From: a virus
Lineage: Duplodnaviria > Heunggongvirae > Uroviricota > Caudoviricetes
Length of the DNA stretch: 64,000 bases
IMG/VR virus record: IMGVR_UViG_3300045996_002451
Coordinates: 19,172 to 83,171 of that record
Direction: 5' to 3' (one strand)
Position numbers and translations under genes: made by a program
Shown: positions 2,416 through 59,921 of the stretch, piece by piece
Layout of the letters: every line of letters starts with the position of its first letter
Position numbering within the stretch: the first letter of the stretch is position 1
Notes under the pieces: model-generated
Told to the model about the DNA's origin: nothing
Seen by the model: only the letters and a program-made list of their open reading frames with translations
Databases searched by the model: none

Positions 2416-2423
2416 GACTATTC

Positions 2424-2472
2424 AAAAAAGAAGACCGCCCTGCTGCCGAATGGGGCGAGCAAAGGCGGTCTT
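2424..2472 (-). terminator. intrinsic terminator
   Basis: AAGACCGCC...GGCGGTCTT stem with a U-tract on the minus strand. Confidence 0.55.
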
Positions 2473-2492
2473 TAACTATTCAGTATGACGCG

Positions 2493-2912
2493 TTATACCA
2501 ACGCGGGTTCCCGTACGTCGACGGGCTGCGTGAGGCACAGATCGCGATTGACGCGTTGCAGCAGTTCCAGGTTGCGCACGATCTGGATGTTGCGCGTATC
2601 GTGCTCGGAAGCGGGTAAGGTACGCAGTTCTTCACACAAGGTGTACTGCATCGTGGCGAGGAGCCCTTGCAGCAACTGGTACGGATGCAGCTCGGACGCG
2701 ATGAAGGGAAGTTCCCCGACCTGGCGGATCGCCTCGTTCCGGATCTGATTCTCGGAAGAGACCTGGTCCAGGAAGGAAACGTCGGGCATCTGGACGGAAA
2801 GTACGGCGCGCAACTCTTGACGCACGGAGATGAACAGGACAGAGATGGCACTCGGACCCGTCAACCCTACCTCGGCCAGTAGTTTGCGGACTTGTTCGGC
2901 TACATCAGTCAA
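2493..2912 (-). CDS. hypothetical protein
   Basis: 139-aa ORF, coding-like composition. Confidence 0.55.
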   Translation of the reverse strand: MTDVAEQVRKLLAEVGLTGPSAISVLFISVRQELRAVLSVQMPDVSFLDQVSSENQIRNEAIRQVGELPFIASELHPYQLLQGLLATMQYTLCEELRTLPASEHDTRNIQIVRNLELLQRVNRDLCLTQPVDVREPALV

Positions 2913-3002
2913 AATCGCGCCTCAGTTCTAAAGATTAACAAAGGGAGGGACAAGCAGGGTTAGTGTATCAGAAGTGCGCCTGCTTGTCCACCACGAAAGC
3001 GC

Positions 3003-3266
3003 TTAATCGTTGACCCGATCGATCGCATCCTGTACCGCACTTCGCATACGGTTTATTGTCGGTGTCACCGCTTCTTTGAGCGGTTCCGACTGCTCTTTTG
3101 TTGCGCTTGTAAACCCGTCTACCAGACCTCCCACCGCGCCGAACGCACCGCTGACCAGTGCGCAGACGCCTTTTACTGTACCGCGAGAAAGGGTGCGTGC
3201 CAGATGGTGGGTTGTCTGGTAAGCAGAGGCACTGACAGGTTTCTTGTTATCAGTTTCGGTAGACAT
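3003..3266 (-). CDS. hypothetical protein
   Basis: Likely start MSTET after AAGGA; glycine-rich hydrophobic segment. Confidence 0.55.
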   Translation of the reverse strand: MSTETDNKKPVSASAYQTTHHLARTLSRGTVKGVCALVSGAFGAVGGLVDGFTSATKEQSEPLKEAVTPTINRMRSAVQDAIDRVND

Positions 3267-3339
3267 CTTCAGTTTTCCTTTCGGTAACTTACTGCTTAAA
3301 GGCACCCGAGAGGGAGTGGGGCTAGCCCCACTCCCAGGG

Positions 3340-5537: not shown

Positions 5538-5795
5538 TTACTCCGGAAGAATGTCGAGGCGCGACCAGGTAATGAACTTGCCGCCGTGCTCAGATCTATG
5601 TGGTTCGAACTTCTTGTATCCTCCTCCAGGGAGGACTTCATACCACAGACTATCAATCAGCTCGGCCACGCGCGTCTCGCCGATAAAGATGACGTCTAAC
5701 TGGATGGAGATCGGTCCGTCGAGACCAGGCGTGTACGCATGGGGACGACTCCAGTCATGTGTGTCTTGTTGGGGGTTAGAAAAACGAATCTTCAT
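5538..5795 (-). CDS. hypothetical protein
   Basis: Likely start MKIRF; tightly packed. Confidence 0.55.
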   Translation of the reverse strand: MKIRFSNPQQDTHDWSRPHAYTPGLDGPISIQLDVIFIGETRVAELIDSLWYEVLPGGGYKKFEPHRSEHGGKFITWSRLDILPE

Positions 5796-5796
5796 G

Positions 5797-6153
5797 CTAG
5801 CTTTTCCCCCGCGCCGTACTAGACGGCTTGTTGTAGGCCAGCACTTCCTCGTCAAATTGGCGTGGTGTCAGTTGCAAGGTATGCAGCACGTCGCGAATGG
5901 CTTGCCCAATCTCGGAAAGATGTTGCGCCTCTCGGGCAAAAGCCACCTGCAGCATCGGACACGCCTTTTTGCGCAGTTCGGGAGAGTTCGCGCAGCGCTG
6001 CAACGCCTCAGTAAGGCTGGACACAGTTTCGTTTTTAGGCAACTCCAGCCACGAGATACCGCCGCGCCAGTGCGCCATCGCGCGTACGAGGACGGTGTTT
6101 TCAGCAGGGGTAAGTTGCGTACCGACTGGGACTGTGTGAGGATCAAGAGACAT
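5797..6153 (-). CDS. hypothetical protein
   Basis: Likely start MSLDP after GGAG. Confidence 0.55.
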   Translation of the reverse strand: MSLDPHTVPVGTQLTPAENTVLVRAMAHWRGGISWLELPKNETVSSLTEALQRCANSPELRKKACPMLQVAFAREAQHLSEIGQAIRDVLHTLQLTPRQFDEEVLAYNKPSSTARGKS

Positions 6154-7978: not shown

Positions 7979-8776
7979 TTAGGAGAGGTTGTCTTGCCAC
8001 GGGTTGTACGGTTCATCGGAACCGGCACCTGCGGGGGCCAGCTCACGCGGAGGCGGCGCATCCTGGTAGCTGCTGCTGGTCGGAGCGGAGACGCCCGGCT
8101 GCACGTTGCGGAAACGCTCACGTCGCTCTTCCGGAGTCTCGCGGTTCTTGCGGGCCGACTCGTACGGGAACTTTTCGGCGACCATGACCGCCGTCATCAC
8201 GCCTTCCATGTTCTGGAGGTTCTCCAGAGTGGCCAACCGATTCTTACGGGTAGCCGGACCGTTGGCCGTGGTGCGCACGAACGAGGTGTACAAGCGGCTG
8301 GCGAACTCCAGCTTGTACGTCTTGCCGTCGAAACCGAGGTCCACGGCCAGCACGAGCGCCTGGGAGTTCTCGCCGACCGTCTGCGGGATCACGAGCGCGT
8401 AGCTCCAGAACGTGCTGGAGCCGCTTTCCGTCGCGGTACCGAAGCGCTCGACGGCCACGAGGTACGCGGTCTGATCGGCGTTTTCGTCCAGCTCGATCTT
8501 GTACGCTTCGCGGTTCTGCGGCTTGACTTCCAGGTAGCCCTTGATGGAATCGACCAGGGCGCCCAGCTTCTCGAACGCGACCGCGGTCAGGTTGGCGATG
8601 TGGATGCGCGGAAAGCGGATGACCATCGGCGCGTTGTTGCCTTCGAACACGGCGCGCAGCTTGTTGGCGGAGATCGGATCCACGTTGTCGATCTCAACCG
8701 CCGCGGTGATGACCTGATCCAGGATGTCGGTGCGAGCGTCGCGCGGAGCCACACCATCTCGAGTAACGATATACAT
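7979..8776 (-). CDS. hypothetical protein with a flexible acidic/aromatic C-terminal tail
   Basis: 265 aa, strongly G/C-ending codons, ends SDEPYNPWQDNLS. Confidence 0.7.
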   Translation of the reverse strand: MYIVTRDGVAPRDARTDILDQVITAAVEIDNVDPISANKLRAVFEGNNAPMVIRFPRIHIANLTAVAFEKLGALVDSIKGYLEVKPQNREAYKIELDENADQTAYLVAVERFGTATESGSSTFWSYALVIPQTVGENSQALVLAVDLGFDGKTYKLEFASRLYTSFVRTTANGPATRKNRLATLENLQNMEGVMTAVMVAEKFPYESARKNRETPEERRERFRNVQPGVSAPTSSSYQDAPPPRELAPAGAGSDEPYNPWQDNLS

Positions 8777-9053
8777 TGGAAGCTCTCTTTCTGAACAGTG
8801 ACGAGGCTCTCTAGGAGCCGGGTTGTTACACGGGTATCAACAGTGGAAGGAGGGAACCCGTAACCCCAAACCTTCCCCAACCCTACACGCAATCTAGCGG
8901 TCCGCACCCTCTGAAAAGAGAACGGACCGCTTAACTTTCCTACCTGCACCTACTGTTCCAGCGAGGCTGTACGCGAACGCGCCTGCTTGTGCGGCCCACT
9001 TACCGCGGCCTTCTGGAAAAGGGATAGCCAGTATGAAGTTGTGAATGGCTTGG

Positions 9054-9407
9054 TTAAGCCGGAGAAAGCTTACGGTGATCCATTTCCGCTTCCATGGCTG
9101 CTCGGAGCAGCGCGTCCCCTGCGGCGTCTAGGTCGAGGGGCGTGGTGAACTGAAGGGACTTGCCGAGCAGGGACAGCATGCCGTGCTCCTTCAGGAGCGT
9201 GGTGACCGCATCTGCCGTCTCTTGGCAGGTCAGTCCGGTGCTGTCTATCTCCCAGCACTCTGCACCCACAGGCCGGGCGATATACCCGATGGGAGCTTCG
9301 ACTTCCTGAAGCTGACCGCTCTTCAGGTTGACTTCTGAGACGGTGCGGGTCACGAGGAACATCTCGCGGGTGCTGTTGTGCAGCGGTTTCAACTCAATTT
9401 GAGACAT
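9054..9407 (-). CDS. hypothetical protein
   Basis: Likely start MSQIE after AGGAG. Confidence 0.6.
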   Translation of the reverse strand: MSQIELKPLHNSTREMFLVTRTVSEVNLKSGQLQEVEAPIGYIARPVGAECWEIDSTGLTCQETADAVTTLLKEHGMLSLLGKSLQFTTPLDLDAAGDALLRAAMEAEMDHRKLSPA

Positions 9408-12920: not shown

Positions 12921-14504
12921 TTAGGCAACGGGCAGTTCTTCGAGGCGATGACCATACTGCGCGTGTAGCCAGCGAAGTCCCGTCTCAGTATCACTGAAGT
13001 CACCGTTGAGCTGCGCTTCGTAGGCTGCCGCCACCGCTTCTCCGATGTGGGGACCGCCCTTGTACTCGAAGTAAGGCATCACGTGCCGTCCGAGTACCAG
13101 TTTGGCGGGCGGCTCGTAGTAGACGTTCAGCTTTTCGGCTAGCTCCAGCATGAAGAACGCGGCTACCGGCATCCCGGTTGGCAGCGGCGGTCGACCGCTG
13201 GCGTCTGCTTCCATCAGCCACGCAAGCATCTGGATGTTGGCCGGAGCCAGGCGCTTGGCCAGACGACGCACCACTGTCTCTGGTCGATCGCTGTTCAGGA
13301 TGTCCCGGTGGGCCAGGTGATCCTCAACCAATGGTACTACCTGCGCGGTGATCTGCGGATGCATCTTGGTGATCCCGATCCGGTCCAGGAACCGCTGGGC
13401 GATGGGACCGCCTGCGCGTTCATGCCCGTGACTGGTCCAGCGCAGCTTGCCCTTTTTCTCCAGTTGCGCGGTGACTACCGGCTTGGCGAAGTCGTGACAG
13501 AGGGCGGAAAACACGAGTACCGCCCTGGCTTCGGGTTCCAACTTTTCGCGGATAGCGATGTTGTTGGCCGCATCCACGACGTACCGGGTGTGCCGGTAGA
13601 CATCCCCTTCGGGATGCCACTCCGGGTCTTGTGGGCACCCATACATCCGGCGCAGTTCTGGGTAGAAAACGTCCCAGAGCGTGCTGGACAAGAACTCCAG
13701 TCCGAGGGAAGGACGGGTGCTCTTGGTGGCCCACTTCAGCCATTCTTCCGCTACTCGTTCCCGAGAGACACAGCGCCCTTTGTCGGTGAGTCGACTGAGG
13801 GCGAGGTAGTCGCCGGTGGCACGGTAGAAGTTGCGCCCGTGCCAGGTCTTTAACTCCGGGTATGCTCCCAGTTCCGGATCCGGCGCATCCTCGCGATACC
13901 GCTGGCGGATCTGGATGCCCAGGTTGTTGAGCAGATCCTCGGTCTGCACCTCGACGTCCCAACCAAAGCGGGAAACGAACTGCATCCCGCGTAGGGCCCG
14001 TAGTGGATCGTCCGCGAAGAGGTTCATGTCTACTGCACGCAGCAGGCCTTGCTGGATGTCTTCGACCCCGTCAAAGAAGTCGAGTAGCTCTCCGGTGAGA
14101 GGATCAAACAGGAGCGCGTTACACGTGTAATCGCGCCGCCGACAGGCTTCGCTAGGAAGCATCTGAGGATCGTACTCGACTACATAGTCGTGGCGGGTCG
14201 GATCGTTGCCCTGCCTGCTGTCTTTACGCGGTAGGCTGACGTCGTAGGTGGCGCCGTCCACGCGCCACTTGAGGACACCAAAGCTGGAACCTTCCAGTTG
14301 GACGGAGCCGGGCTGCTGTTCCAGAAGGTCCTGAAGAGCTGGAAAAGGGAGGCCGTAGACCTCGACGTCGATGTCCTTGGGTTCGAGTCCTAGGAGGGCG
14401 TCGCGGACACAGCCTCCGACCAGGTAGCCCTGAAGGCCTCTAGCCTTCAGGTCCAGTAGGAACTTCCGGAGTTGGGACGTCACCGGGATCTTTAGGGTCT
14501 GCAT
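12921..14504 (-). CDS. cca: CCA-adding tRNA nucleotidyltransferase with HD domain
   Basis: LVGGCVRDALLG..PKDIDVEV, RRDYTCNA, DDPLRALRGMQF, SRERVAEE, HPEGDVYRHT, LCHDFAK. Confidence 0.93.
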   Translation of the reverse strand: MQTLKIPVTSQLRKFLLDLKARGLQGYLVGGCVRDALLGLEPKDIDVEVYGLPFPALQDLLEQQPGSVQLEGSSFGVLKWRVDGATYDVSLPRKDSRQGNDPTRHDYVVEYDPQMLPSEACRRRDYTCNALLFDPLTGELLDFFDGVEDIQQGLLRAVDMNLFADDPLRALRGMQFVSRFGWDVEVQTEDLLNNLGIQIRQRYREDAPDPELGAYPELKTWHGRNFYRATGDYLALSRLTDKGRCVSRERVAEEWLKWATKSTRPSLGLEFLSSTLWDVFYPELRRMYGCPQDPEWHPEGDVYRHTRYVVDAANNIAIREKLEPEARAVLVFSALCHDFAKPVVTAQLEKKGKLRWTSHGHERAGGPIAQRFLDRIGITKMHPQITAQVVPLVEDHLAHRDILNSDRPETVVRRLAKRLAPANIQMLAWLMEADASGRPPLPTGMPVAAFFMLELAEKLNVYYEPPAKLVLGRHVMPYFEYKGGPHIGEAVAAAYEAQLNGDFSDTETGLRWLHAQYGHRLEELPVA

Positions 14505-15396: not shown

Positions 15397-15792
15397 TTAA
15401 GCCTCCGGAGAGTCTAACGTGCGCTGCGCCAGAAGGGTGCGCGCGTGTTCTTGTACTGCAGCTACGACGGTGTTTAGGTCCAGCGTACGGCACAGGTGAT
15501 CGAACGCGTTGTGAACAAAGAGCGTGTCGTCCAGGGTTACGGTGTGCACGCTTTTGACTGTACGCCGCTTTTGCTTTACGCGCGCTCTGCTTTGGTGATC
15601 GGACGTAGCGTAGTAAACACCGTCAGCGTGCCCGGTCAGACAGCACGCGCCTTCTTGGTTAATCGGTACGTACGCGGTCCACTTTTCGGCCTGGGCCACG
15701 TCCTGCAGGGCTTCAAGAGGCAACCCTTCCAGGTAGGTAAATACGGTTTCCCAGGCGGCTTGTGGCACGAGGTGTTCATCGATACTAAGCAT
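15397..15792 (-). CDS. paralog family B member (divergent)
   Basis: ALQDVAQA..W...CCLTGHADG. Confidence 0.6.
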   Translation of the reverse strand: MLSIDEHLVPQAAWETVFTYLEGLPLEALQDVAQAEKWTAYVPINQEGACCLTGHADGVYYATSDHQSRARVKQKRRTVKSVHTVTLDDTLFVHNAFDHLCRTLDLNTVVAAVQEHARTLLAQRTLDSPEA

Positions 15793-15840
15793 CAGCGGAA
15801 CTCCTTTCAATTGAGGGCACCCAGGCACAGCGCAACAATT

Positions 15841-15888
15841 AAAAAGGCGACCCTGAAGAAGACCGGAGTCTCCCTCAAGGTCGCCCTT
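15841..15888 (-). terminator. intrinsic terminator after Ro60
   Basis: GGCGACC...GGTCGCC stem with a U-tract on the minus strand. Confidence 0.6.
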
Positions 15889-15906
15889 ATCTAGGTCGGT
15901 AGGAAC

Positions 15907-17631
15907 CTAGATATTGCCCAGCGCAAATTGCCCCATGATGTTCGGTGTGGAGGCATCAAAACCCACACAATCGATCATTCCCCGATCTTTGGGATCGGCG
16001 ATGGTGAACCCGTTCGAGACCATACCGCACACGATCAGCTTGGCGTCGATGCCCATCTTCTCCCGGTACGCGCGCAGGGCCTGGACGGGCTGTACCGGTC
16101 CAGCGTACGTCTCGGAGTCCGTGTAGACCACGAAGACATCGAACGGGATCTTCTTTGCCAGCGCGTAACGCATCGGCAAGGAGCAGTCGGTGGAGCCGAA
16201 GGCAAGGTTGTTGACTTCGTTGCATGCATCGGTCAGCCGCTGGCGCGGACTGACTTTCAGCTCACTGATCCCATCGATCTCGTCCGCTGTTGCGCGGTTA
16301 CGCGCGTAGTAACCCCGGCTGCCTGCGGTGAAGCCCGTGATCATGTACTGGTCTTCGACGTTTGCCGTGACCAAGGCCATCGCCACGGAGCCCACGCGCG
16401 GGGAGAGCCCCTGCACGCCGCCGCACATTCCACCCGTCATCGAGCCCGAGACGTCCAGGGCCAGCATCCACCGCTTGCCGGTCGGCTCCACGTTCTTGAA
16501 CGCCAGGTAGAACGCCTTGTCCAGTCCGTCCACGATCTGACGCACAGGAGACCAGACGTTGTCCCCTTTCAGGGATCTGCCGGACTCGTACGTCTTCATC
16601 GCAGTGAGCACGGCGATCGGATGGATCCGCGAAGCCGCCAGTCCTGCCGGATCGGTCAGCTTGTTCACCACGAACTTGGTGGCGTCGGACATCGGTCCCA
16701 GGACTCCGTAGCGGGTCATGTTCGCCAGGTTGCGCAGCATCGCCGTAAGACCCATCTCCGGCAGCAAGGCCTCCCAGACAGCCGGGCTGGTCTTGTACTG
16801 CGTCGGGATGCACTCGTGCGGCAGCCGGAACTCCTTGAGGACCGTGATCACGTCCTTTTCGGTCGGTACCCGCTTGATCAGCTCGAAGCCCCGGATCATA
16901 TCCGGCAGGTGCTGCGAAAGATCTTCGTACATCACCGCACCGGTGGACAGCTCGCTGCCGCACTTGACGCCCTTCTTGCGCGAGACCGTACGCGTACCGA
17001 GATCGCCGCCCACGGACCAACGCATCGCCGCGTCCTTGCTCTTGCTCTCCGTGATCGGATGCGCGAGGCGCAAGACGTCGCGATGGCTCCAGCCGTCCCG
17101 CTGCTGATACTTGATCAACTGCAGGGCGAGGGAGTTGTCCGAGCGCTCCGTGTACCAGTTGGCCACGGCACGTCGCAGTCCTCGACCCCAGCCGCGCATG
17201 CCATCGACGTGCTCGCAGAACTGGAACAGGTGGGTGCCGATGCGACATACCTTGGGTAGTGCCGAGAGGGCAGCCGCCCGGGTCGGGTCGTCGCCATAGC
17301 TGGCCGCGATCGCCAGGACGAAGATCGCCTGGTCGTTCTTGGGTGCTCGCGCCTGATCCGAGACTTCCGTCACGATCTGTACGGTCCGGAGACCATCCGC
17401 CTTGACGCACTCCTGTGCCGCCTTCGCGTTCTCCAGGGTCAGCTTCTGCTGCGTGGCGTAGTAGGAACCGCCTTCACTTCCCAGGATGAGGAAGCGCTGG
17501 AGGCGGGTCCAGCAATCCACGCCAAAGACGACGCCTCCGGCACTGTTGGGGACCATGTCGGCTTCTCGGCCCGGGATCGCCCGCGTCTGCGGCGTCTTCT
17601 TGCTGCTCAATGTACCCTTCAGATAACTCAT
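15907..17631 (-). CDS. rsr: Ro60/TROVE RNA-binding protein (Rsr)
   Basis: NSAGG, RLQRFLILGSEGGSYY, GWGRGLRRAVANWY, KYQQRDGWSHRDVLRLAHP, vWA MIDAS LALDVSGSM, YTDSET, GFDAS. Confidence 0.96.
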   Translation of the reverse strand: MSYLKGTLSSKKTPQTRAIPGREADMVPNSAGGVVFGVDCWTRLQRFLILGSEGGSYYATQQKLTLENAKAAQECVKADGLRTVQIVTEVSDQARAPKNDQAIFVLAIAASYGDDPTRAAALSALPKVCRIGTHLFQFCEHVDGMRGWGRGLRRAVANWYTERSDNSLALQLIKYQQRDGWSHRDVLRLAHPITESKSKDAAMRWSVGGDLGTRTVSRKKGVKCGSELSTGAVMYEDLSQHLPDMIRGFELIKRVPTEKDVITVLKEFRLPHECIPTQYKTSPAVWEALLPEMGLTAMLRNLANMTRYGVLGPMSDATKFVVNKLTDPAGLAASRIHPIAVLTAMKTYESGRSLKGDNVWSPVRQIVDGLDKAFYLAFKNVEPTGKRWMLALDVSGSMTGGMCGGVQGLSPRVGSVAMALVTANVEDQYMITGFTAGSRGYYARNRATADEIDGISELKVSPRQRLTDACNEVNNLAFGSTDCSLPMRYALAKKIPFDVFVVYTDSETYAGPVQPVQALRAYREKMGIDAKLIVCGMVSNGFTIADPKDRGMIDCVGFDASTPNIMGQFALGNI

Positions 17632-17694
17632 TGCACACTCTCTTTCGGCCCGTTTACGGGCGTTACACGTGTATCACACGTCATACAACACTAC

Positions 17695-17848
17695 AGGGGA
17701 GGTAGGAGTCGAACCTACACGACACACTGCCAAGTCGTTATCTCAACAGTAGCAGACGGGAAAGCTAACGACACTCGACCGTACTGCTTATTACCGTGTC
17801 TGACCCAGGGTTGGTCCACTGGCGCTCTGACCATTAAGCTACTCCCCT
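17695..17848 (-). ncRNA. YrlA-like Y RNA (tRNA mimic)
   Basis: AGGGGAG/CTCCCCT acceptor, D arm, T arm GTAGG-TTCGACT-CCTAC; ~100-nt insert in place of the anticodon with a GGTCGAGTG stem. Confidence 0.7.
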
Positions 17849-17973
17849 AAGAAACCATGTCCGGGGTAGGACTCTCACCTATTTGATTTCAAGCAAGAAC
17901 GGGTGGCCACCCGTCTTCCTGCCCTCTCCGACTATACGGTCCCGAACTCTACCGAGCTGTTTCCAGCTCAACT

Positions 17974-18050
17974 CAACGTAGGGGGAGTTGAACACCCCGA
18001 CCTCAATCACGGTTTCCGTGACTGCGCTCTTACCCCTGAGCTATACGCCG
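17974..18050 (-). ncRNA. tRNA-like RNA without an anticodon loop
   Basis: D and T arms present; anticodon arm is the long hairpin CAGTCACG-GAAAC-CGTGATTG. Confidence 0.6.
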
Positions 18051-18087
18051 TGCTTAACTTAGTGGTCTCCACTGAGTTAAGGGGGGC

Positions 18088-18160
18088 CGATCGTGGTAGG
18101 AGTTGAACCTACGACCTCCAGGTGTACATCCTGGCGCTCTACCAACTGAGCTACACGATC
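18088..18160 (-). ncRNA. atypical tRNA or tRNA mimic (GTA in loop)
   Basis: Full cloverleaf, but the loop ATGTACA has A32/C37 and there is no long variable arm. Confidence 0.6.
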
Positions 18161-18167
18161 GACATTA

Positions 18168-18230
18168 GGACAGGCAAGTTGATTGAAGTGGGGAGTTCAT
18201 GCGAGATAACCCACCTCATTCGGCCCGTCT
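18168..18230 (-). ncRNA. minimal Y RNA-like hairpin
   Basis: 5' GACGGGCCGAATG...GGTTATC...ACTTGCCTGTC 3', a bulged Ro-binding-type stem. Confidence 0.72.
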
Positions 18231-18237
18231 TAAAAGT

Positions 18238-18615
18238 TTACTGGGTTGTGAAGCGGCAGTTGCTTTTACGCGTATGCTCCTTCAAGTTGACCTTGATCGG
18301 GCAGCGCTTGGAGTTCAAGCGTGCCAGGATGTGTCCCTCGTGCGGGTTGTAGTAGTGCAGCGGTGGATAGTCCCAGATCGCAACCTCAGTCTTGCTCCAG
18401 TCCATCACGAAGCTGCGCTCGGCAAAGCCCCAGATGACGCCATGGTTGTCCCGTTTGAGCAGCACGTAGCGGCGCCAGCGGGGGATCGGGATCTTTTCTG
18501 AAGACAGGGCACGTTGGACGCCCCGCTTATTGAACGGACTACCCCCGGTGACATCAGTGCCTGTGTTCCACATGGCGCGTTGGATGCGCGCGCGTTTGGT
18601 GGTCAGTTTAGGCAT
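18238..18615 (-). CDS. basic hypothetical protein
   Basis: 125 aa, AAGGAGG RBS, K/R-rich. Confidence 0.6.
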   Translation of the reverse strand: MPKLTTKRARIQRAMWNTGTDVTGGSPFNKRGVQRALSSEKIPIPRWRRYVLLKRDNHGVIWGFAERSFVMDWSKTEVAIWDYPPLHYYNPHEGHILARLNSKRCPIKVNLKEHTRKSNCRFTTQ

Positions 18616-18639
18616 GACAGCCTCCTTGGGGTAAATGTT

Positions 18640-18904
18640 GCGGCCTGCGGGAATCTAACCCACACTCGTTAGGTGTACTGCGCTTACTCGCTTGCTTGAA
18701 CATCCCGTCTGGAATGGCGTGAAGGAAGACGGGCCTACCAGGTCTGCACTGAAGCGCACATAGAGGCCGCTTAGTCCGCACGAATGAGTCCCCGTGCCAT
18801 ACGGCAACTCAGTCATTGTACCAAGCGGTGATCTCTAGACAGGGACCTCGGACGATTTGCAGTCGCCCTCTTAGCCTGTGCTACCAACTCTGCTCTCGGG
18901 CCGC
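18640..18904 (-). ncRNA. 265-nt RNA with a tRNA-like frame
   Basis: GCGGCC/GGCCGC terminal stem, T-arm-like GTGGG-TTAGATT-CCCGC, Cys-type hairpin GGCGA-CTGCAAA-TCGTC. Confidence 0.55.
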
Positions 18905-18922
18905 ACGAAATTGTTTGACTAC

Positions 18923-19065
18923 GCCAGGGGATGGACTCGAACCACCGACCCGTAGTGTATGGTAACCTTCAAACGCCGACCCCGACCAGGGTAGTTAGCC
19001 CTCGCTGAGATAAGTGTGTAAGAAGACATGTTGGACTGCTGCTCTACCAACTGAGCTACCCTGGC
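18923..19065 (-). ncRNA. YrlA-like Y RNA
   Basis: GCCAGGG/CCCTGGC acceptor, D and T arms; insert with a pyrimidine tract and GGGGTCGGCG...GGTTACC. Confidence 0.75.
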
Positions 19066-19072
19066 AAGGGAG

Positions 19073-19137
19073 TCCGGGCAAGTGGTTGCGGCGAGGGGTG
19101 TTACTTGAAAGGGTAACCCTCATTGCTCCGGCCCGAA
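19073..19137 (-). ncRNA. minimal Y RNA-like hairpin
   Basis: TTCGGGCCGGAG...GGTTACC...ACTTGCCCGGA. Confidence 0.7.
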
Positions 19138-19144
19138 CAAAAAC

Positions 19145-19263
19145 TTTGAAGAGGACAAGGGAGTTAACCTCGACTGAAACGGCCACCAAGGCAGCGCCCG
19201 ACTCGAACGGGCTTCGTCTTGTTTTGTAAGCAAGATAACCGAAGTCATCCGGCCCTCTTCAAA
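19145..19263 (-). ncRNA. Y RNA-like with an internal T arm
   Basis: TTTGAAGAGGGCCGGATG...GGTTATC...GCCCG-TTCGAGT-CGGGC...CTTGTCCTCTTCAAA. Confidence 0.75.
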
Positions 19264-19345
19264 TGAAGGTGGTTGCTGCGACCTGCCTAGCGGTATCCCC
19301 ACCGGTATGGAGATATGGTTCCGCGGTCTGCGCTCTCACCACCAG

Positions 19346-19444
19346 GATACACCGTGGGACTCGAACCCACCCGTATGACACTTTTCAGGTCATCGCCGTC
19401 CCTGGTTCTTCACCAGGCGCTCTGCCAACTGAGCTACGTGCATC
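19346..19444 (-). ncRNA. tRNA-like RNA with a non-canonical loop and long variable arm
   Basis: D arm, CCTGG-TGAAGAA-CCAGG, extended variable region, T arm GTGGG-TTCGAGT-CCCAC. Confidence 0.6.
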
Positions 19445-19563
19445 ACACCAACTATTTAGTTGTAAGGGAGGCAGGGAACATCAGCTAGTCGCGCTTTGCT
19501 GACTCTTCTAGGGGCTTTGTATCTGTACGTCTACTCGGGTAACCATCCCCTTACACCTGCCAA

Positions 19564-19635
19564 GCTGCAACGTGGGACTCGGACCCACACAAACCAAGCG
19601 TACTTAGTTGCTCTACCAGTTAAGCTAGTTGCAGC
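19564..19635 (-). ncRNA. tRNA-like RNA with a UACG tetraloop in place of the anticodon
   Basis: GCTGCAAC/GTTGCAGC stem, D arm, AACTAAG-TACG-CTTGGTT, T-like arm. Confidence 0.6.
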
Positions 19636-19680
19636 TCTCTGAAAACTGAAAGGACTCTCACCCACTCAGTTGCCAGAAAA

Positions 19681-19992
19681 TCAGTCGGACCAGGTAATCT
19701 GGGCGTCATCCCAGCGCACGTTGTACTCGACCGGGGAGACGGTGGGCCACTCGCCGACCCAGAGGATCTGAGTCTGCTCTTCGGAAGGCCCGTCGGAGTA
19801 AGCCGAGAACTCCTGTCCAGTCTGGGGACCCGTCAGGTTCTGCGCCGTGGTGAACCCGGTCCACGGATCGTAGGACCGCACCGCGCACGTTTCTACTGTG
19901 GTCGCAGTGGGTTCCGCGCGGCTCTGGGTGCCTGGAAAAAGAAGACTGGCTGCGAGGGCCAGGATCAGGGCGAACAGTACTGGGAACTTCAT
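19681..19992 (-). CDS. secreted hypothetical protein
   Basis: Signal peptide MKFPVLFALILALAASLLF; GGAGG RBS. Confidence 0.7.
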   Translation of the reverse strand: MKFPVLFALILALAASLLFPGTQSRAEPTATTVETCAVRSYDPWTGFTTAQNLTGPQTGQEFSAYSDGPSEEQTQILWVGEWPTVSPVEYNVRWDDAQITWSD

Positions 19993-20050
19993 GGAAACCT
20001 CCGTTCAGGTAAAAGATTACGAACTGCTCAGGTTACCCGAGCGTGGTTAG

Positions 20051-20170
20051 GTGGGGAAGCAGGAATCGAACCTGCGTCTCGATCTCCTCAAGATAAACCT
20101 TCAACACCGGCCCATTGCTGGACAAAAAAGAAGAAGGGTTTACGCGCCTTGCCACTAGGCCATTCCCCAC
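20051..20170 (-). ncRNA. YrlA-like Y RNA
   Basis: GTGGGGAA/TTCCCCAC stem, D and T arms; insert CCCTTCTTCTTTTTTGTCCA...TGGGCCGGTG...GGTTTATC. Confidence 0.78.
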
Positions 20171-20381
20171 ATGTGATCCGCTATGAAATTGAAACAGTCT
20201 GGGTAGGGACGGAGGTGCTGACGCCCCCACCCCGACTGCGCTAGGACCAACTACCTCGATTACGCCAGGCAGCCCACGAGAAGGCACTTCCGGTCTAGGG
20301 AGCACAGCGATCCCTCGCTGTTCCGGTCACCCGTTCTGGGTGGAGACAGTAACTCCCACCTGTTTACCTGCTAGTCCAATA

Positions 20382-20454
20382 GAGCGGGAGAGGGACTTGA
20401 ACCCTCAGTCTTTGGGTTATGAGCCCAACGTTTTACCAATTACACTATCCCGCA
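20382..20454 (-). tRNA. tRNA-Met(CAT), initiator-like
   Basis: TTGGG-CTCATAA-CCCAA with three G-C pairs; 1:72 mismatch. Confidence 0.88.
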
Positions 20455-20464
20455 ACAAATGAGG

Positions 20465-21070
20465 GTTAGGTAGGGGACGACCACCCGTTGTCTTGATCTG
20501 TCCCCTACCGTTCTCCAGAGTTAGACATCCCCGATTACAGCAGGCACCACACGGGAAGGCGCGTCCGGTCAGAGTGCAAAGGCATCCCTGCCCTTTCCGA
20601 CCTCTGTTCTAGAGGTTAGATACGTTAACACTCACCTGTTTGCCTTGTCTAACTCTTCCGTAGCTACTTCCTGACGGCTATCGCTTTTCGAACCTCACGG
20701 GAAGTGATCCCTTCGTCAACATTCAACCTACCCCGTATTAAACGGATCGATCTAGTTAACCACGCAGTAAACTGCGCCGGAGGAACGTGTCCGGTCTTGC
20801 GCTGGACGAACCTAGCTCAGACTACCCCACAAGGGTGGTTATCAGGTGGCCCGACTGCGTCTTGCGACGTCACCACGGTTGGGCCTTCTTCAGGTGTTAC
20901 CCCGAAGCCGTTATTTAGTTGTGATTGCGTCAACCTACACATTCAGGGACCACGGGACTAGCCCCCTGAACCCTTCCTGCGCCCCAGTTCCCGATTCCGG
21001 GCGCAGCTCTCCACGGTACCTCGCTGTTTGCACGTTCAAGAAAGTTCGTGCTCCAGCTTCCCTCGGTTGA
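20465..21070 (-). ncRNA. candidate large structured RNA(s), ~600 nt
   Basis: No credible ORF; many stems, e.g. 20469-20478/20500-20509, 20517-20527/20646-20656, 20848-20857/20876-20885. Confidence 0.5.
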
Positions 21071-21077
21071 CACAGCT

Positions 21078-21213
21078 TAGATGGACAAGGAGTTTTTGTT
21101 TGGGGGTTAGGTGGGACTCGAACCCACAACCTCCGGGCTATGCACCCGGCGCTCTACCGATTGAGCTACTCGTGCAGTGTGAGCGCGATAACCCAAACAA
21201 CACGGCCCATCTA
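21078..21213 (-). ncRNA. Y RNA-like stem enclosing tRNA D, anticodon and T arms
   Basis: TAGATGGGCCGTG...GGTTATC...D arm, CCGGG-TGCATAG-CCCGG, T arm...CTTGTCCATCTA. Confidence 0.72.
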
Positions 21214-21220
21214 GAAAATG

Positions 21221-21397
21221 AAGTCGAGCAAGTTAGCGCAGTCGGAGGTTTATGGCCGTGCGTACAGGGTCCCGAAGGCTGACCTGCCGTTTACACGAGT
21301 ACCTTCACCCAAAGGGCACCAGTACCCTCGCTGTGCCAGTTGCCTGGCCTGAGCTACCTTAGGACCATTAGATTACCGAAATGCTTCGGCTCGACTT
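21221..21397 (-). ncRNA. long Y RNA-like RNA with a non-tRNA insert
   Basis: AAGTCGAGCCGAAGC...GGTAATC...ACTTGCTCGACTT. Confidence 0.7.
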
Positions 21398-21747
21398 AAA
21401 ACTACCAGAGCGGTCCGTATACCGCTCTGGTCGCGGTAGTGCTTTAGTGCCTACCTCACTTCTCCCAGTCTCGTTGGGAGTTCCCGCCGACCTTATCTTT
21501 TAGCAGGTCAGTCGCTGCAGATTATGACGCTATCTGCGATCGTTGCGCAAGAGTCGTTATACGGCGTCTCTCCTGCCCTAAAGCTGGGCAGTTGCGCTCC
21601 AGGAAGCAACACGCTGCAACTGTTGTAACTAACGGTCTGTAAACGGTTTCGGAGTAAGCCCTTCCGCAGCCTAGGTACCCTCTGCGGTGCTTGTTTACAA
21701 ACGGTTGTCCCGTCACAGCGGACGGTGTGTCGCTTACCTGGCTTCCG

Positions 21748-22194
21748 TTAGGAAGTCGGTTCGGAAAGGTTGGTGCGCAGCAAATGAAGCATCCGCTTTG
21801 CTGGCAAGGACAAGGCGCCGAGATCGGTCAAGGCGCAGCGCAGCCGGATCTTCTGGTAGTTTTCCAGCAAGGCGCGCATGTAAGACTGACCTTCCGGGAG
21901 TTTCCCGTAGATACGCTTGATGACCAGAAACTTGTTCAAGGCCACGGCGGTACCCAGTTCGAAGTGGCAACCTCGAGAGGTCTCATCCCAGAAGACGTGC
22001 ACCACGTCCGCGTCCACCATGGCTCCCAGGTGACCGAACAGGATCTCTGCTCCTGTCGGGCAGGCTTCCATGGGAGTGTCCCAATAGGAGAAGACCGTGT
22101 GACCCTCGTCGCGAAGACCCGCTATGTGGGCCTTGATCAGCAACGTACGACCGGGTTCAGCAGCACGTACCGGACAGATCACAACGATCTTCAT
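21748..22194 (-). CDS. nucleoside 2-deoxyribosyltransferase-like protein
   Basis: VVICPV...ADVVHVFWDETSRGCHFELGTAVALNK. Confidence 0.6.
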   Translation of the reverse strand: MKIVVICPVRAAEPGRTLLIKAHIAGLRDEGHTVFSYWDTPMEACPTGAEILFGHLGAMVDADVVHVFWDETSRGCHFELGTAVALNKFLVIKRIYGKLPEGQSYMRALLENYQKIRLRCALTDLGALSLPAKRMLHLLRTNLSEPTS

Positions 22195-22225
22195 GCTTTA
22201 CCTCACGATGAAGTTGTCAAAGATT

Positions 22226-22294
22226 GAGCAGGCAAGTTAAGCGGGGCTGGGGGTGATCGTTAACAGTGATAACCCAATCCCATTCGGCCCGATC
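22226..22294 (-). ncRNA. minimal Y RNA-like hairpin
   Basis: GATCGGGCCGAATG...GGTTATC...ACTTGCCTGCTC. Confidence 0.72.
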
Positions 22295-22331
22295 AAAAAA
22301 CTGGAGAAAGCGCGCTGGCGATCTTTGCTAT

Positions 22332-22360
22332 AGCTTAAGCTACAAACAAACGCCTGTCAA
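22332..22360 (-). promoter_or_regulatory. sigma70-type promoter heading the Y RNA/Ro60 cassette
   Basis: TTGACA-17 nt-TAAGCT on the minus strand. Confidence 0.75.
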
Positions 22361-22534
22361 GGTCTTTCTTCCCAAAAGGCACCCTAAGCTAACAGGACGT
22401 GGCGATAGCTACAGGTAGGTTCGTCCAACAGCGCGTTAGGGCACGTAAGCGTCAAGAGATAACCGCGCGGCGTCACGTACTGGAGCACCGAGACTAGCTC
22501 GGCCTCACAGTACGGACACCGTCCCAGGGGCGCC

Positions 22535-22906
22535 TCAGGCCGAGGCTGGGTTTCCATCTGAAACCTCTGCTGCTTGGCGTAGTACGCGCGCCACGTTTTC
22601 TGCCGTCTGGTCCTGGCGGTCATTGAACATGGACAACGAGAAACCAGGCAGCAACGGACGTACGGTTTCCATGGCATCAGACACCAGGTTTGCCTGAGCG
22701 AACCCGTTCTGCTCATTGCACAGTTCATAAGCAGCCCGGGTCATTGCCCCGAGCATGCAGAATCTACACGCCTGGGGGTTAACCGCAAAGACCGGCTTGC
22801 CCGTGGCGTCAACCGCCATCGAGCCTTGATGCCACCCGGTTTCGATCAGGTCCGCAGCCTGGAGCAGTACCTGGCGCACACTTACGTTGTTCTCGAGACT
22901 CATCAT
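22535..22906 (-). CDS. hypothetical protein (DUF6197-like pattern)
   Basis: AADLIETGWHQG...FCMLGAM...FND..QTAENVARVL. Confidence 0.6.
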   Translation of the reverse strand: MMSLENNVSVRQVLLQAADLIETGWHQGSMAVDATGKPVFAVNPQACRFCMLGAMTRAAYELCNEQNGFAQANLVSDAMETVRPLLPGFSLSMFNDRQDQTAENVARVLRQAAEVSDGNPASA

Positions 22907-22914
22907 GACTCCTG

Positions 22915-23760
22915 TTACACGGGTACTCGGCGCGTGAGTTCCTGCCGGATCTCTTCCAGCATGGCGCCCATATGATTCTGGCCCTGTTCATCCGGCCCAT
23001 CGCCCCAGTACGCATCCCACGGTGCCGCATGAATGAGCGTTCTGCCCCCCGTAGCGAGGAGACGTTCTGCCAGCAGTGGGTGCTGATCGAACTTGGCCCA
23101 TAAGAGCTGAGCCATCACGTGTCCGCGTAAGGTGTCCCAGTCCGGGATCGCTTCGACCTTACCACCCAGCTTCTTCGCCGCTTCCGGGGTCGGAGCTAGC
23201 TCTACTTTGGTCCGCTCCTTCGGGTCTGCGCACTTGGCACCCTGATAGGCGTGCTCCGCAGTCAGCCAGAGCGTTCCCTCGAAGATCACGGGGTGTGAGC
23301 TGAAATTACTCAGCCAACTCCACTCCGGCGTCTTGCTGTTGAACCGAATGGCGTCATCCGGCTGAAACCGGTGGGGCCAGCGCTGCGCGGCTTCCTGGAT
23401 CAAGAGATGCGTGTGACAGAACTGATTGTCGGCACAATAGCAACAGAGCACCGCGCGGCCCTTCTTTTCCAGACCAAAGAGATAGAGCTGTCGCCAGGAG
23501 GCTCCGGCAGACCGCATGATCGCCTGGTACTGCTCAGTATACTCGGCGTCGCTCAGCGGTGGGTAGCCTGGGTACGGCATCGGGAGACCGCGCTGGAGCG
23601 CCGTGTGATTCTTGTGTCCCAGGACCATCGGCCAGTTAGGCGCGAAGCCGCGGGCCCAGTCTTTACCGCTCTTGACCGTCACGTCCACGTAGTGGTCTAG
23701 CAGTGGGGTGGAGCCGCGTAGTTGGGCCCGGCGTAATTGGACTACCTGGATCTCACTCAT
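22915..23760 (-). CDS. NADAR (YbiA) domain protein with an N-terminal Cys/His domain
   Basis: WLSNFS, TAEHAYQGAK, AKFDQH, LLATG, DAYWG, GQNHMG..LEEIR; N-term LCCYC...CH. Confidence 0.88.
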   Translation of the reverse strand: MSEIQVVQLRRAQLRGSTPLLDHYVDVTVKSGKDWARGFAPNWPMVLGHKNHTALQRGLPMPYPGYPPLSDAEYTEQYQAIMRSAGASWRQLYLFGLEKKGRAVLCCYCADNQFCHTHLLIQEAAQRWPHRFQPDDAIRFNSKTPEWSWLSNFSSHPVIFEGTLWLTAEHAYQGAKCADPKERTKVELAPTPEAAKKLGGKVEAIPDWDTLRGHVMAQLLWAKFDQHPLLAERLLATGGRTLIHAAPWDAYWGDGPDEQGQNHMGAMLEEIRQELTRRVPV

Positions 23761-58062: not shown

Positions 58063-58135
58063 GGGGTCATAGCTCAATTGGGAGAGCATCTGTATGGCAT
58101 ACAGAAGGTTTGGGGTTCGATTCCCCATGACTCCA
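58063..58135 (+). tRNA. tRNA-Ala(GGC)
   Basis: Loop ATGGCAT; G3:U70. Confidence 0.92.
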
Positions 58136-58258
58136 TCGACGAGCCGAAGGCTTTGGGTTACCAGGACAAAGCGGCGAGATAGCATCAAGCTGTGAGGTGG
58201 GTTCAAGCCCTGCCACCCGCGCAAGCGGTTTTACCCAGTTCCATCCCTTGCTCGTTGA
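58136..58258 (+). ncRNA. Y RNA-like with an internal T-like arm
   Basis: TCGACGAGCCGAAGG...GGTTACC...GTGGG-TTCAAGC-CCTGC...CCCTTGCTCGTTGA. Confidence 0.72.
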
Positions 58259-58261
58259 TAC

Positions 58262-58912: not shown

Positions 58913-59035
58913 CGGGGAGGTAGTTTAATGGCAAAACCCTAAACCCTTCTTCCACTCTTTGCCCGGAACCGGGCCGTCGGCAGCAGGTTATCTACTGTTA
59001 ATAGAGTGATGGACGTTCGAATCGTCCCTTCCCCG
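58913..59035 (+). ncRNA. YrlA-like Y RNA
   Basis: CGGGGAGG/CTTCCCCG stem, D arm, CCCTTCTTCCACTCTTTGCCCGG-AA-CCGGGCCGTCG...GGTTATC, T arm GGACG-TTCGAAT-CGTCC. Confidence 0.78.
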
Positions 59036-59039
59036 CTAT

Positions 59040-59918: not shown

Positions 59919-59921
59919 TGT

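What the first reader, a model, noticed from the sequence alone, without database searches (positions are those of the whole stretch)
15907..22360. Ro60 with a large, modular Y RNA repertoire in one cassette
Seen: a sigma70 promoter (22332-22360) heads ~4.7 kb of mostly non-coding DNA ending in Ro60. Nine elements carry a Ro-type bulged stem, most as G(G/A)GCCG-purine...GGTTA(T/C)C...CTTG(C/T)C. Architectures: bare hairpins (18168, 19073, 22226); YrlA-like tRNA frames with the stem in place of the anticodon (17695, 18923, 20051); stem enclosing a T arm (19145); stem enclosing D, anticodon and T arms (21078); stem enclosing ~140 nt of unrelated structure (21221). Known: bacterial Rsr binds Y RNAs that tether effectors such as PNPase, and described loci have only a few. 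Inference: one Ro ring with interchangeable RNA adaptors or decoys.
Basis: partly seen in the sequence, partly recalled or inferred. Interest (0 to 1): 0.9.

Follow-up and report, generated by a model that had tools for sequence, protein, structure and literature searches.

The report
Phage Ro60 with ten Y RNAs
An uncultured 211-kb phage carries a Ro60 gene preceded by a dense block of small structured RNAs, of which seven or eight have the helix that Ro60 binds, and some are built on a tRNA frame in a layout not found in the papers searched.

Summary
The core observation holds. Ro60 (15907-17631, minus strand) follows about 4.7 kb that is 76% ORF-free.

**What the models find**
- A covariance model of the Ro-type bulged helix (GGGCCGR...GGUUAYC / CC...CUUGYC) finds six copies in the cassette and one in the distant tRNA array (58135-58259). 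All score E<=1e-4, the next hit in the window scores 11 bits, and the other 149 kb of the genome has none.
- Two more elements (20050-20170, 58913-59036) are tRNA frames with open acceptor ends. Their anticodon arm is replaced by the same helix in reversed strand order, closed by a loop.
- 18922-19065 is probably a third such element. 17694-17848 is a tRNA-like RNA with no demonstrable Ro helix.
- The sigma-70 promoter is not confirmed.

**Comparison with other phages**
- The helix covaries strongly across phage loci: 94% paired, against 42-51% when the pairing is slid.
- Such arrays recur next to Ro60 or inside tRNA arrays in other phages, with up to 13 copies. This locus is therefore large but not unique.
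- The acceptor-open tRNA-Y chimera recurs in seven other phage contigs. I found no paper describing it.

**Limits**
Ro60 binding, discrete transcripts, and the adaptor or decoy role are all inferred. I class this as a new variant of a known kind. The scan's first-stage readers had already noted this stretch and two of its elements.

The parts
15907..17631 (-). Ro60 / Rsr homologue (574 aa, TROVE + Ro60 vWA domains)
   Evidence: Pfam. PDB phmmer hits 2nvo, 9nen and 1yvp at E about 1e-115. 46.5% identity to the Ro-like protein of Sinorhizobium phage Phosso.
15844..15887 (-). Intrinsic-terminator-like hairpin (20-bp stem plus T run) 20 nt after the Ro60 stop; likely end of the transcription unit
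   Evidence: Rfam tRNA 41 bits with a 79-nt insert. No R2 hit. R3 26 bits from tRNA parts only, with no 5'-strand motif.
18085..18161 (-). tRNA-Tyr (GUA), 4 nt downstream of a Y hairpin
   Evidence: ARAGORN. Rfam 67.6 bits.
18166..18232 (-). Y RNA, bare stem-bulge hairpin (GGGCCGAAUG...GGGUUAUC...CUUGCC)
   Evidence: R2 66 bits, E 1.5e-15. Rfam nematode stem-bulge RNA RF01656 41.6 bits, above its gathering score of 38; Y_RNA RF00019 26 bits. Folding z-score -3.95.
18922..19065 (-). tRNA frame with a 77-nt insert in place of the anticodon loop; probable strand-reversed Ro helix with a long cap hairpin
   Evidence: Rfam tRNA 42 bits. The minimum-energy fold shows a bulged-C helix. R3 only 8.8 bits. 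17 of 19 bases match the 5' strand of the element at 20050-20170.
19070..19140 (-). Y RNA, bare stem-bulge hairpin
   Evidence: R2 56 bits, E 9e-13.
19147..19261 (-). Y RNA whose helix encloses a T arm and two small hairpins (YrlB-like layout)
   Evidence: R2 38 bits, E 4e-8. Folding z-score -2.6.
20050..20170 (-). Acceptor-open tRNA-Y chimera: acceptor, D arm, [3' strand - GCAA cap - 5' strand of the Ro helix] in place of the anticodon arm, variable hairpin, T arm
   Evidence: Minimum-energy fold. Seed of model R3. Paralogue in the window and relatives in seven other phage contigs.
20382..20454 (-). tRNA-Met (CAU) inside the cassette
21077..21214 (-). Y RNA whose helix encloses a tRNA core in natural order (D arm, CAU anticodon arm, T arm) without an acceptor stem
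   Evidence: R2 25.5 bits, E 1e-4. Rfam tRNA 45 bits, model positions 6-65. Folding z-score -4.4. The same layout occurs at L042:2023-2156.
21220..21398 (-). Y RNA whose helix encloses about 140 nt of structure with no Rfam match
   Evidence: R2 28 bits, E 2e-5. No family found for the insert.
22224..22296 (-). Y RNA, bare stem-bulge hairpin; first element of the cassette
   Evidence: R2 54 bits, E 2e-12.
22332..22360 (-).
   Evidence: Not called by the promoter scan. An earlier scan note reports that the phage encodes its own RNA polymerases.
58135..58259 (+). Additional Y RNA (helix around a T-arm-containing insert), abutting tRNA-Ala on one side and 2 nt from tRNA-Ala on the other, in the main tRNA array
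   Evidence: R2 37 bits, E 8e-8. 5'-strand HMM E 6e-4. tRNA coordinates.
58913..59036 (+). Second acceptor-open tRNA-Y chimera, paralogue of 20050-20170, 3 nt upstream of tRNA-Lys
   Evidence: R3 51 bits, E 5e-8, with the whole Ro-helix insert aligned. Insert homology to 20050-20170, z 9.3.
12921..14504 (-). tRNA nucleotidyltransferase (CCA-adding enzyme, PolyA_pol head + HD), 1.4 kb downstream of Ro60
   Evidence: Pfam. PHROG 2244.

Best explanation
**What it is**
This is a phage Ro60 locus with an expanded, modular set of Y RNAs: nine firm and one probable in the genome. Seven or eight lie in the 4.7-kb cassette in front of Ro60, and two lie in the main tRNA array.

**Shared and variable parts**
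- Every member carries one constant part, the bulged helix whose 5' strand (GGGCCG-R...GGUUAYC) matches the sequence that Ro60 contacts in characterised Y RNAs.
- Each also carries a variable part: nothing, a T arm, a tRNA-Met-like core, an unrelated 140-nt domain, or a whole tRNA frame with free acceptor ends.

**How it most likely works (inferred)**
1. The tightly packed RNAs sit 0-6 nt from each other or from tRNAs. They are transcribed as tRNA-operon-like precursors.
2. RNase P and the tRNA 3'-end nucleases cut the precursors apart.
3. The acceptor-open chimeras are finished by the CCA-adding enzyme encoded next to Ro60.
4. Each RNA then docks on the outer face of the single phage Ro60 ring. 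There it acts as a gate, and its variable module tethers the ring to a different partner.
5. The phage has no PNPase or RtcB of its own, so the partners would be host proteins. Candidates are PNPase, as shown for Thermus phage phiLo, and tRNA-handling or tRNA-attacking enzymes for the tRNA-shaped modules.

**Shown here**
The Ro60 gene, the helices, their covariation, their clustering, and their recurrence with Ro60 in other phages.

**Inferred**
Transcription, processing, Ro60 binding and partner tethering.
For: **In this genome**
- Seven R2 hits at E<=1e-4 with a clean gap to noise, and none in the remaining 149 kb.
- Ro60 identity is secure.
- Spacing to neighbouring tRNAs is 0-6 nt.
- A strong terminator follows directly after Ro60, and a CCA-adding enzyme lies nearby.
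- The phage has no RtcB or PNPase of its own.

**Covariation**
- Across 26 hairpins from the window and 11 phage loci, 94.1% of cells are paired, against 42-51% when the partner is slid.
- 12 of 18 pairs show compensatory changes, and 0 of 500 shuffles reach the observed score.

**Match to known Y RNAs**
- The motif fits the published Rsr/Ro60 contact motif GNCGAAN0-1G / GGUCCGA (PMC4201824).
- One hairpin passes the gathering score of the nematode Y-RNA-homologue family RF01656.

**Linkage to Ro60 in other phages**
- Of the 14 pattern-found loci with three or more motif copies, nine hold Ro60 in the fetched stretch and four more hold it elsewhere in the same record. One (L046) was not checked.
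- R2 counts 13, 7, 5, 5, 5, 4 and 4 helices in other phage loci.
- In jumbo phages the helices sit between tRNAs.

**The acceptor-open chimera**
- It recurs in L039 (twice), L094 (twice), L012, L110, L130 and L046.
- Its Ro-helix pairs are 92-95% kept, and 7 of 10 pairs show compensatory changes.

**Precedents**
- phiLo Ro60, two Yrl RNAs and host PNPase form a complex (PMC12135203).
- M. smegmatis YrlA is cut by RNase P and receives CCA (PMC4201824).
Against: - There is no expression, end-mapping or binding evidence of any kind.
- Folding z-scores are modest for several elements: -0.7 to -2.4, and only two are below -3.9. The case therefore rests on covariation and model scores rather than on stability.
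- The alignments used for covariation were fitted to the model, which favours pairing.
- Three elements replace the canonical CGAA/CGGA with CGU or CGG-U: 21077-21214, 20050-20170 and 58913-59036. 21077-21214 and 20050-20170 scored only 3-4 bits with a 5'-strand-only profile, and 58913-59036 was not listed by it at all. Their affinity for Ro60 could be low.
- No promoter was confirmed.
- A hairpin with a T-rich tail at 21404-21431 could split the cassette into more than one transcription unit.
- No conserved protein partner is co-encoded in the other loci.
Confidence: 0.75

Rival explanations
1. tRNA-decoy set. The tRNA-shaped members are chiefly baits that soak up or misdirect host tRNA-targeting defence nucleases or tRNA-modifying enzymes. 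These members are the acceptor-open chimeras, the tRNA-Met-like core and the other anticodon-less tRNA frames in the cassette. In this reading Ro60 serves mainly to stabilise the RNAs or to couple captured enzymes and RNA to decay. This overlaps with the main reading but makes decoy action the primary function, rather than adaptor action.
For: - The cassette mixes real tRNAs (Tyr, Met) with at least five tRNA-like frames that lack a normal anticodon loop.
- One Y RNA displays an intact CAU anticodon arm without an acceptor stem.
- Y RNAs sit inside tRNA arrays in several jumbo phages.
Against: - Three of the ten elements are bare hairpins, and one carries a non-tRNA domain. A tRNA-decoy role does not explain these.
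- The chimeras lack the anticodon loop, which is what most anticodon nucleases recognise.
- No host, defence system or nuclease is identified.
Confidence: 0.2
2. The repeated helix is a processing or stability module of a phage tRNA-type operon, comparable to a spacer or 'punctuation' hairpin recognised by an RNase. It would not be a Ro60 ligand, and its proximity to Ro60 would reflect only the co-location of RNA-metabolism genes.
For: - The elements abut tRNAs at 0-6 nt and occur in tRNA arrays far from Ro60: 41 kb in this phage, and more than 100 kb in two 460-kb phages.
- No binding data exist.
Against: - The conserved bases are exactly those of the Ro60 contact strand, including the bulged C and the UUAUC.
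- One element crosses the threshold of a Y-RNA-homologue family.
- Every phage record with three or more copies that was checked also encodes Ro60.
- 94 of the 99 single-copy pattern loci had no Ro60 in the fetched stretch and look like chance matches.
- A simple spacer hairpin would not need a conserved asymmetric bulge plus covarying upper stem.
Confidence: 0.05

Closest known systems
Salmonella Typhimurium rsr-yrlBA-rtcBA operon (YrlA, YrlB; Rfam RF02553)
   Same: - Ro60 is encoded beside Y RNAs that carry the GNCGAA-type 5' strand.
- One RNA has a tRNA-like module and one has only a T arm.
- The Y RNAs are modular: a Ro60-binding helix plus an effector module.
   Different: - That operon has two RNAs; this genome has about ten.
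- The window has no canonical YrlA (T arm, closed acceptor-like stem-loop, D arm): RF02553 has no hit at E<=10.
- The phage has no RtcB or RtcA.
[quoted passage not shown] In Salmonella only the 5' strand is recognisable (PMC4201824).
Mycobacterium smegmatis YrlA (cleaved by RNase P in its acceptor-like stem, then CCA-tailed)
   Same: It gives a Y RNA with a tRNA-type acceptor end and a Ro60 helix where the anticodon stem would be.
   Different: - There, the open acceptor arises by cutting a closed loop, which leaves a nicked two-piece RNA.
- Here, the open acceptor and a capped Ro helix are encoded directly as one continuous tRNA-ordered chain.
Thermus phage phiLo Ro60 with Yrl1 and Yrl2 (PMC12135203)
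   Same: A phage Ro60 has Y-like RNAs encoded directly upstream. The effector, PNPase, is supplied by the host.
   Different: phiLo has two simple stem-bulge RNAs, no tRNA-framed members, and no embedding in tRNA arrays.
Deinococcus radiodurans Yrn1 and metazoan Y RNAs / nematode stem-bulge RNAs
   Same: Both strands of the bulged helix are conserved. The bare hairpins here resemble stem-bulge RNAs closely enough for one to pass the RF01656 threshold.
   Different: Those are cellular RNAs, typically 1-4 per genome. They have no tRNA frames with free acceptor ends.
Uncultured phage contig IMGVR_UViG_3300009034_002981 (locus L087) and cultured Gordonia phage Sixama
   Same: - Both have arrays of the same helix on the Ro60 strand, mixed with tRNAs.
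- L087 has 13 helices in 3.3 kb.
- Sixama has about 6, which are unannotated in its record.
   Different: - Those arrays contain canonical YrlA-order members, which this window lacks.
- No acceptor-open chimera was seen in either.
- Their Ro60 proteins are only 43-44% identical to this one.

Membership tests
Ro60 / Rsr protein | TROVE (HEAT-repeat ring) domain followed by a Ro60-type vWA domain | tested here: met
   Pfam PF05731 at 2.1e-45 and PF25045 at 1.7e-56. Full-length matches to 2nvo, 9nen and 1yvp at E about 1e-115.
Y RNA (Ro60-binding RNA) | Conserved 5'-strand motif (GGUCCGA in animals, GNCGAAN0-1G in bacteria) | tested here: met
   - GCCGAAUG or GCCGAAG in four elements.
- GCCGGAG or GCCGGAU in two.
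- GCCGU, GCCGGU or GUCGG variants in four.
Y RNA (Ro60-binding RNA) | Bulged helix formed with a 3' strand, supported by covariation | tested here: met
   R2 hits. 94% of cells paired and 12 of 18 pairs compensatory. Capped versions 92-95% paired. The alignments were fitted to the model.
Y RNA (Ro60-binding RNA) | Encoded with a Ro60 gene | tested here: met
   Seven or eight elements lie within 4.7 kb upstream on the same strand. Every multi-copy phage record checked encodes Ro60.
Y RNA (Ro60-binding RNA) | Physically bound by Ro60; exists as a discrete small RNA | not testable with these tools
YrlA (Rfam RF02553) | Inside the Ro helix: T arm, then a closed acceptor-like stem-loop, then D arm (circularly permuted relative to tRNA) | tested here: not met
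   - No RF02553 match at E<=10 in 15500-23000.
- In the motif-order scan of R2 hits, none of the seven window hits has YrlA order, while 15 hits in other loci do.
- Related loci give RF02553 hits of 27-49 bits.
tRNA (for 20050-20170, 58913-59036, 18922-19065) | Acceptor stem with free ends, D arm and T arm | tested here: met
   Minimum-energy folds. Rfam tRNA 42 bits for 18922-19065. R3 alignments.
tRNA (for 20050-20170, 58913-59036, 18922-19065) | Seven-nucleotide anticodon loop on a 5-bp stem | tested here: not met
   The anticodon arm is replaced by a long hairpin of 51-77 nt. ARAGORN calls none of them.

The most novel reading that the evidence does not exclude
The acceptor-open tRNA-Y chimeras may be a distinct, conserved class of Ro60 ligand that behaves as a real tRNA at one end. 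They would be matured by RNase P, CCA-tailed by the phage enzyme and possibly aminoacylated. The element at 20050-20170 and its relative in L039 both carry a G-1:C73 pair, the tRNA-His signature. Such an RNA could carry the Ro60 ring to synthetases, EF-Tu, ribosomes or tRNA-directed defence nucleases. The other modules of the repertoire would direct the same ring to other targets, which would make the cassette a programmable targeting library for an RNA-surveillance machine during infection.
Probability: 0.15. Interest if true: 0.85.

Novelty: new variant of a known kind. Interest (0 to 1): 0.62.

Why it matters
Ro60 and its Y RNAs are conserved from bacteria to humans. Yet only one Y RNA tethering function is established: PNPase in Deinococcus and Salmonella.

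- **A natural comparison set.** A single Ro60 serves about ten RNAs that share the docking helix but differ in the other module. The modules can be compared for what each one recruits.
- **The missing topology.** Canonical YrlA looks like a circularly permuted tRNA with a closed acceptor. Wang et al. (bioRxiv 10.1101/312249) wondered whether some Y RNAs could come to resemble real tRNAs. The acceptor-open chimera found here is encoded directly in that form.
- **Link to phage tRNA biology.** Y RNAs lie inside the tRNA arrays of several large phages. This ties the Ro60 system to phage tRNA handling and possibly to the conflict over tRNA cleavage.
- **Tractable models.** Cultured phages such as Gordonia phage Sixama and the Bixzunavirus mycobacteriophages carry smaller, unannotated versions, so the ideas can be tested at the bench.

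Tried and rejected
- **Rfam at gathering and E<=10 thresholds.** No YrlA hit in the cassette, so the 'YrlA-like' label was dropped.
- **MAFFT alignments of the hairpins and of the chimeras.** The registers were not consistent with the structure. I built single-sequence seed models instead and let Infernal realign the hits.
- **RNAduplex search for 3' partners.** It often chose spurious partners and was not used as evidence.
- **Half-site profile HMMs.** The 5' strand alone recovers five elements (E<=0.016), with a sixth marginal (E 0.49). The 3' strand alone carries too little information.
- **Element 17694-17848.** No model or motif supports a Ro helix, so it is rejected as a Y RNA.
- **Element 18922-19065.** The R3 score is too low to count it as firm, so it is kept as probable.
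- **Megablast of the cassette against 50,697 phage records.** No match.
- **Upstream of the closest Ro60 genes.** No helices within about 12 kb upstream of Ro60 in the two 460-kb phages with the most similar Ro60 (53-56% identity), nor around Ro60 in phage Phosso. Their Y RNAs lie in distant tRNA arrays.
- **tblastn of the three cassette ORFs and the flanking genes against all fetched loci.** No conserved neighbour apart from NADAR.
- **RtcB and RNase PH (PNPase) domains in the phage genome.** Absent.
- **Annual Review by Sim et al. 2020.** Not held in the library.

Full report
**Setting**

The window is bases 19172-83171 of a 211,171-bp IMG/VR virus record estimated to be 98% complete. It carries about 38 tRNAs and a tmRNA at 52-61.5 kb on the plus strand.

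The finding lies in a minus-strand block:
- The ORF at 15907-17631 is a Ro60/Rsr homologue. It matches Pfam vWA_Ro60 at 1.7e-56 and TROVE at 2.1e-45, and has full-length matches to solved Ro60 structures at E about 1e-115.
- Its best match among cultured phages is Sinorhizobium phage Phosso, at 46.5% identity. In all, 362 phage records encode a relative.
- A 20-bp terminator-like hairpin follows the stop codon.
- A CCA-adding enzyme lies 1.4 kb further on.
- The phage has no RtcB and no PNPase-type domain.

**Checking the observation**

The 4729 nt between Ro60 and 22360 contain three small ORFs with ribosome-binding sites, 24% of the stretch. The rest is non-coding.

A strict regular expression for the 5' strand, G[GA]GCCG..G[GT]TTAYC, matches 13 times in the genome. 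Six matches are in the cassette, all on the minus strand and with a fixed 22-23-nt span. Two more are in the tRNA array.

I then modelled the helix:
1. I seeded a covariance model from the hairpin at 18166-18232.
2. I collected 26 hairpins from the window and from phage loci that share the motif.
3. I rebuilt the model from these as R2.

Run without filters over all 64 kb, R2 gives seven hits between 66 and 25.5 bits (E 1.5e-15 to 1e-4). Nothing else scores above 11 bits.
- The seventh, 58135-58259, lies between two tRNA-Ala genes in the plus-strand array.
- The remaining 149 kb of the genome has no hit.

**The tRNA-framed elements**

Rfam's YrlA model finds nothing in the cassette even at E<=10. 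Related loci give 27-49 bits with the same model.

The element at 20050-20170 folds as a tRNA with an open acceptor stem, a D arm, a variable hairpin and a T arm. Its anticodon arm is replaced by a long hairpin that reads as follows:
- the 3' strand of the Ro helix (…CCCUUC…UUGUCC),
- a GCAA cap,
- then the 5' strand (GGGCCGG…GAAGGUUUAUC).

A model of this element (R3) gave these results:
- 58913-59036 in the tRNA array scores 51 bits (E 5e-8), with the whole insert aligned. The two inserts are clearly homologous (z 9.3).
- The same design is found at L039:2216-2340, which has the same GCAA cap.
- It is also found at L039:2349-2445, L110:2097-2195, L094:4540-4639, L094:4975-5100, L012:3335-3464, L130:1169-1294 and L046:2512-2608.
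- Those contigs encode Ro60 proteins only 41-48% identical to this one, where the gene is in the fetched stretch.
- In that alignment the Ro-helix pairs are 92-95% kept, and 7 of 10 show changes on both sides.

The other two tRNA-framed elements are less secure:
- 18922-19065 is a clear tRNA frame with a 77-nt insert (Rfam tRNA 42 bits). Its minimum-energy fold contains a bulged-C helix. But R3 gives only 8.8 bits, and its similarity to 20050-20170 is confined to the 5' strand. I call it probable.
- 17694-17848 is tRNA-like with an insert of about 80 nt, but no Ro helix can be shown.

**Is the helix real and tied to Ro60?**

Covariation is strong. On the 26-hairpin alignment:
- 94.1% of cells pair, against 42-51% when partners are slid by 1-3 columns.
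- 12 of 18 pairs have compensatory changes.
- The covariation score is 0.62 against 0.08-0.13, and no shuffle reaches it.

The alignment was fitted to the model, which favours pairing, but the margin is large.

Thermodynamic z-scores alone are unremarkable for several elements, ranging from -0.7 to -4.4.

The conserved bases match the motif that Chen et al. identified as the likely Rsr contact (GNCGAAN0-1G, related to the vertebrate GGUCCGA). One hairpin exceeds the gathering score of the nematode stem-bulge RNA family; these RNAs are Y RNA homologues.

Linkage to Ro60 holds beyond this genome:
- An exact-pattern scan of IMG/VR returned 118 loci.
- Of the 14 loci with three or more relaxed-motif copies, nine hold Ro60 in the fetched stretch and four more hold it elsewhere in the same record. 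One was not checked.
- 94 of the 99 single-copy loci show no Ro60 in the fetched stretch and are probably chance matches.

**This locus is large but not unique**

R2 counts in other phages:
- 13 helices in 3.3 kb upstream of Ro60 in a 47-kb contig (L087).
- 7 in L062.
- 5 in L042/L023, in L131/L132 and in L074.
- 4 in L100 and L045.

In the 460-kb, 238-kb and 199-kb phages, the helices sit between tRNAs in large arrays that also hold a tmRNA. These arrays can be more than 100 kb from Ro60.

Cultured phages carry smaller sets that are unannotated in their records:
- Gordonia phage Sixama has about six, two upstream of Ro60 and four in gaps of its tRNA array.
- A Bixzunavirus mycobacteriophage has three.

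A helix enclosing a tRNA core in natural order, like 21077-21214, also occurs in L042.

**Comparison with the literature**

The papers I could read report small numbers:
- Two Y RNAs in Salmonella.
- At least two in M. smegmatis and in D. radiodurans.
- Two in phage phiLo.
- 355 YrlAs in 254 bacteria and 22 phages.

Wang et al. describe YrlA as resembling a circularly permuted tRNA with a closed acceptor. They speculate that some might be processed to resemble canonical tRNAs. M. smegmatis YrlA is opened by RNase P and then CCA-tailed.

I found no paper describing arrays of this size, Y RNAs interleaved in phage tRNA arrays, or a directly encoded acceptor-open form. The 2020 Annual Review was not available, so this negative is limited.

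**Mechanism**

Tight packing against tRNAs and tRNA-like frames points to operon-like transcription and release by tRNA-processing nucleases. Three features support this:
- gaps of 0-6 nt between elements,
- a single strong terminator after Ro60,
- a CCA-adding enzyme close by.

The chimeras could then be CCA-tailed. Each RNA would dock on the one Ro60 through the constant helix and present a different module. By analogy with RYPER and phiLo, the partners would be host proteins. These steps are inference.

The decoy idea for the tRNA-shaped members has a published precedent as a hypothesis. It does not explain the bare hairpins or the non-tRNA module.

**Verdict**

The finding is real. It is a member of the known Ro60/Y RNA system, with an unusually large and varied repertoire and a topology I could not find described.

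Noticed in passing
window 17641-17654 (-): The Ro60 leader contains ACGGGCCGAAAGAG, a copy of the Y 5'-strand core, just before the ribosome-binding region. The GGG lies in the 3' arm of a small hairpin. It might let Ro60 regulate its own translation. The profile score is weak (5.7 bits).
   Followed up: no
window 59921-59994 (+): A tRNA with a UCA anticodon sits in the main tRNA array. ARAGORN labels it 'SeC', and Rfam tRNA gives 60 bits. It could be an opal suppressor.
   Followed up: no
window 18640-18904, 19345-19444, 19563-19635, 17973-18050 (-): The cassette holds further tRNA-like frames without a normal anticodon loop and without a Ro helix. One is about 265 nt long with GCGGCC/GGCCGC ends and a T arm. 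R3 and Rfam give weak tRNA-type scores.
   Followed up: partly
window 20244-20377 and 20517-20656 (-): An earlier first-stage note reports two copies of a structured RNA of about 135 nt flanking tRNA-Met. I saw the region as ORF-free and without any Rfam match but did not test it.
   Followed up: no
L087 (IMGVR_UViG_3300009034_002981) 934-4248 (-): A 47-kb phage contig has 13 Ro-type helices in 3.3 kb directly upstream of its Ro60, mixed with tRNAs. They include bare hairpins and YrlA-order members. This is the largest array seen here.
   Followed up: partly
L141 (Gordonia phage Sixama MN484601) 5682-5918 and 8514-9162: This cultured phage has about six Y-type elements in gaps of its record that carry no annotation, four of them between tRNA genes downstream of Ro60. 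It is a tractable model.
   Followed up: partly
window 20050-20170 (-) and L039:2216-2340 (-): Both chimeras have a base before position 1 that pairs with the discriminator (G-1:C73), the identity mark of tRNA-His, and both share the GCAA cap. This was seen by inspection of the folds.
   Followed up: no
window 21404-21431 (-): An 11-bp hairpin with a T-rich tail lies just upstream of the Y RNA at 21220-21398. It could be an internal terminator or a processing site.
   Followed up: no
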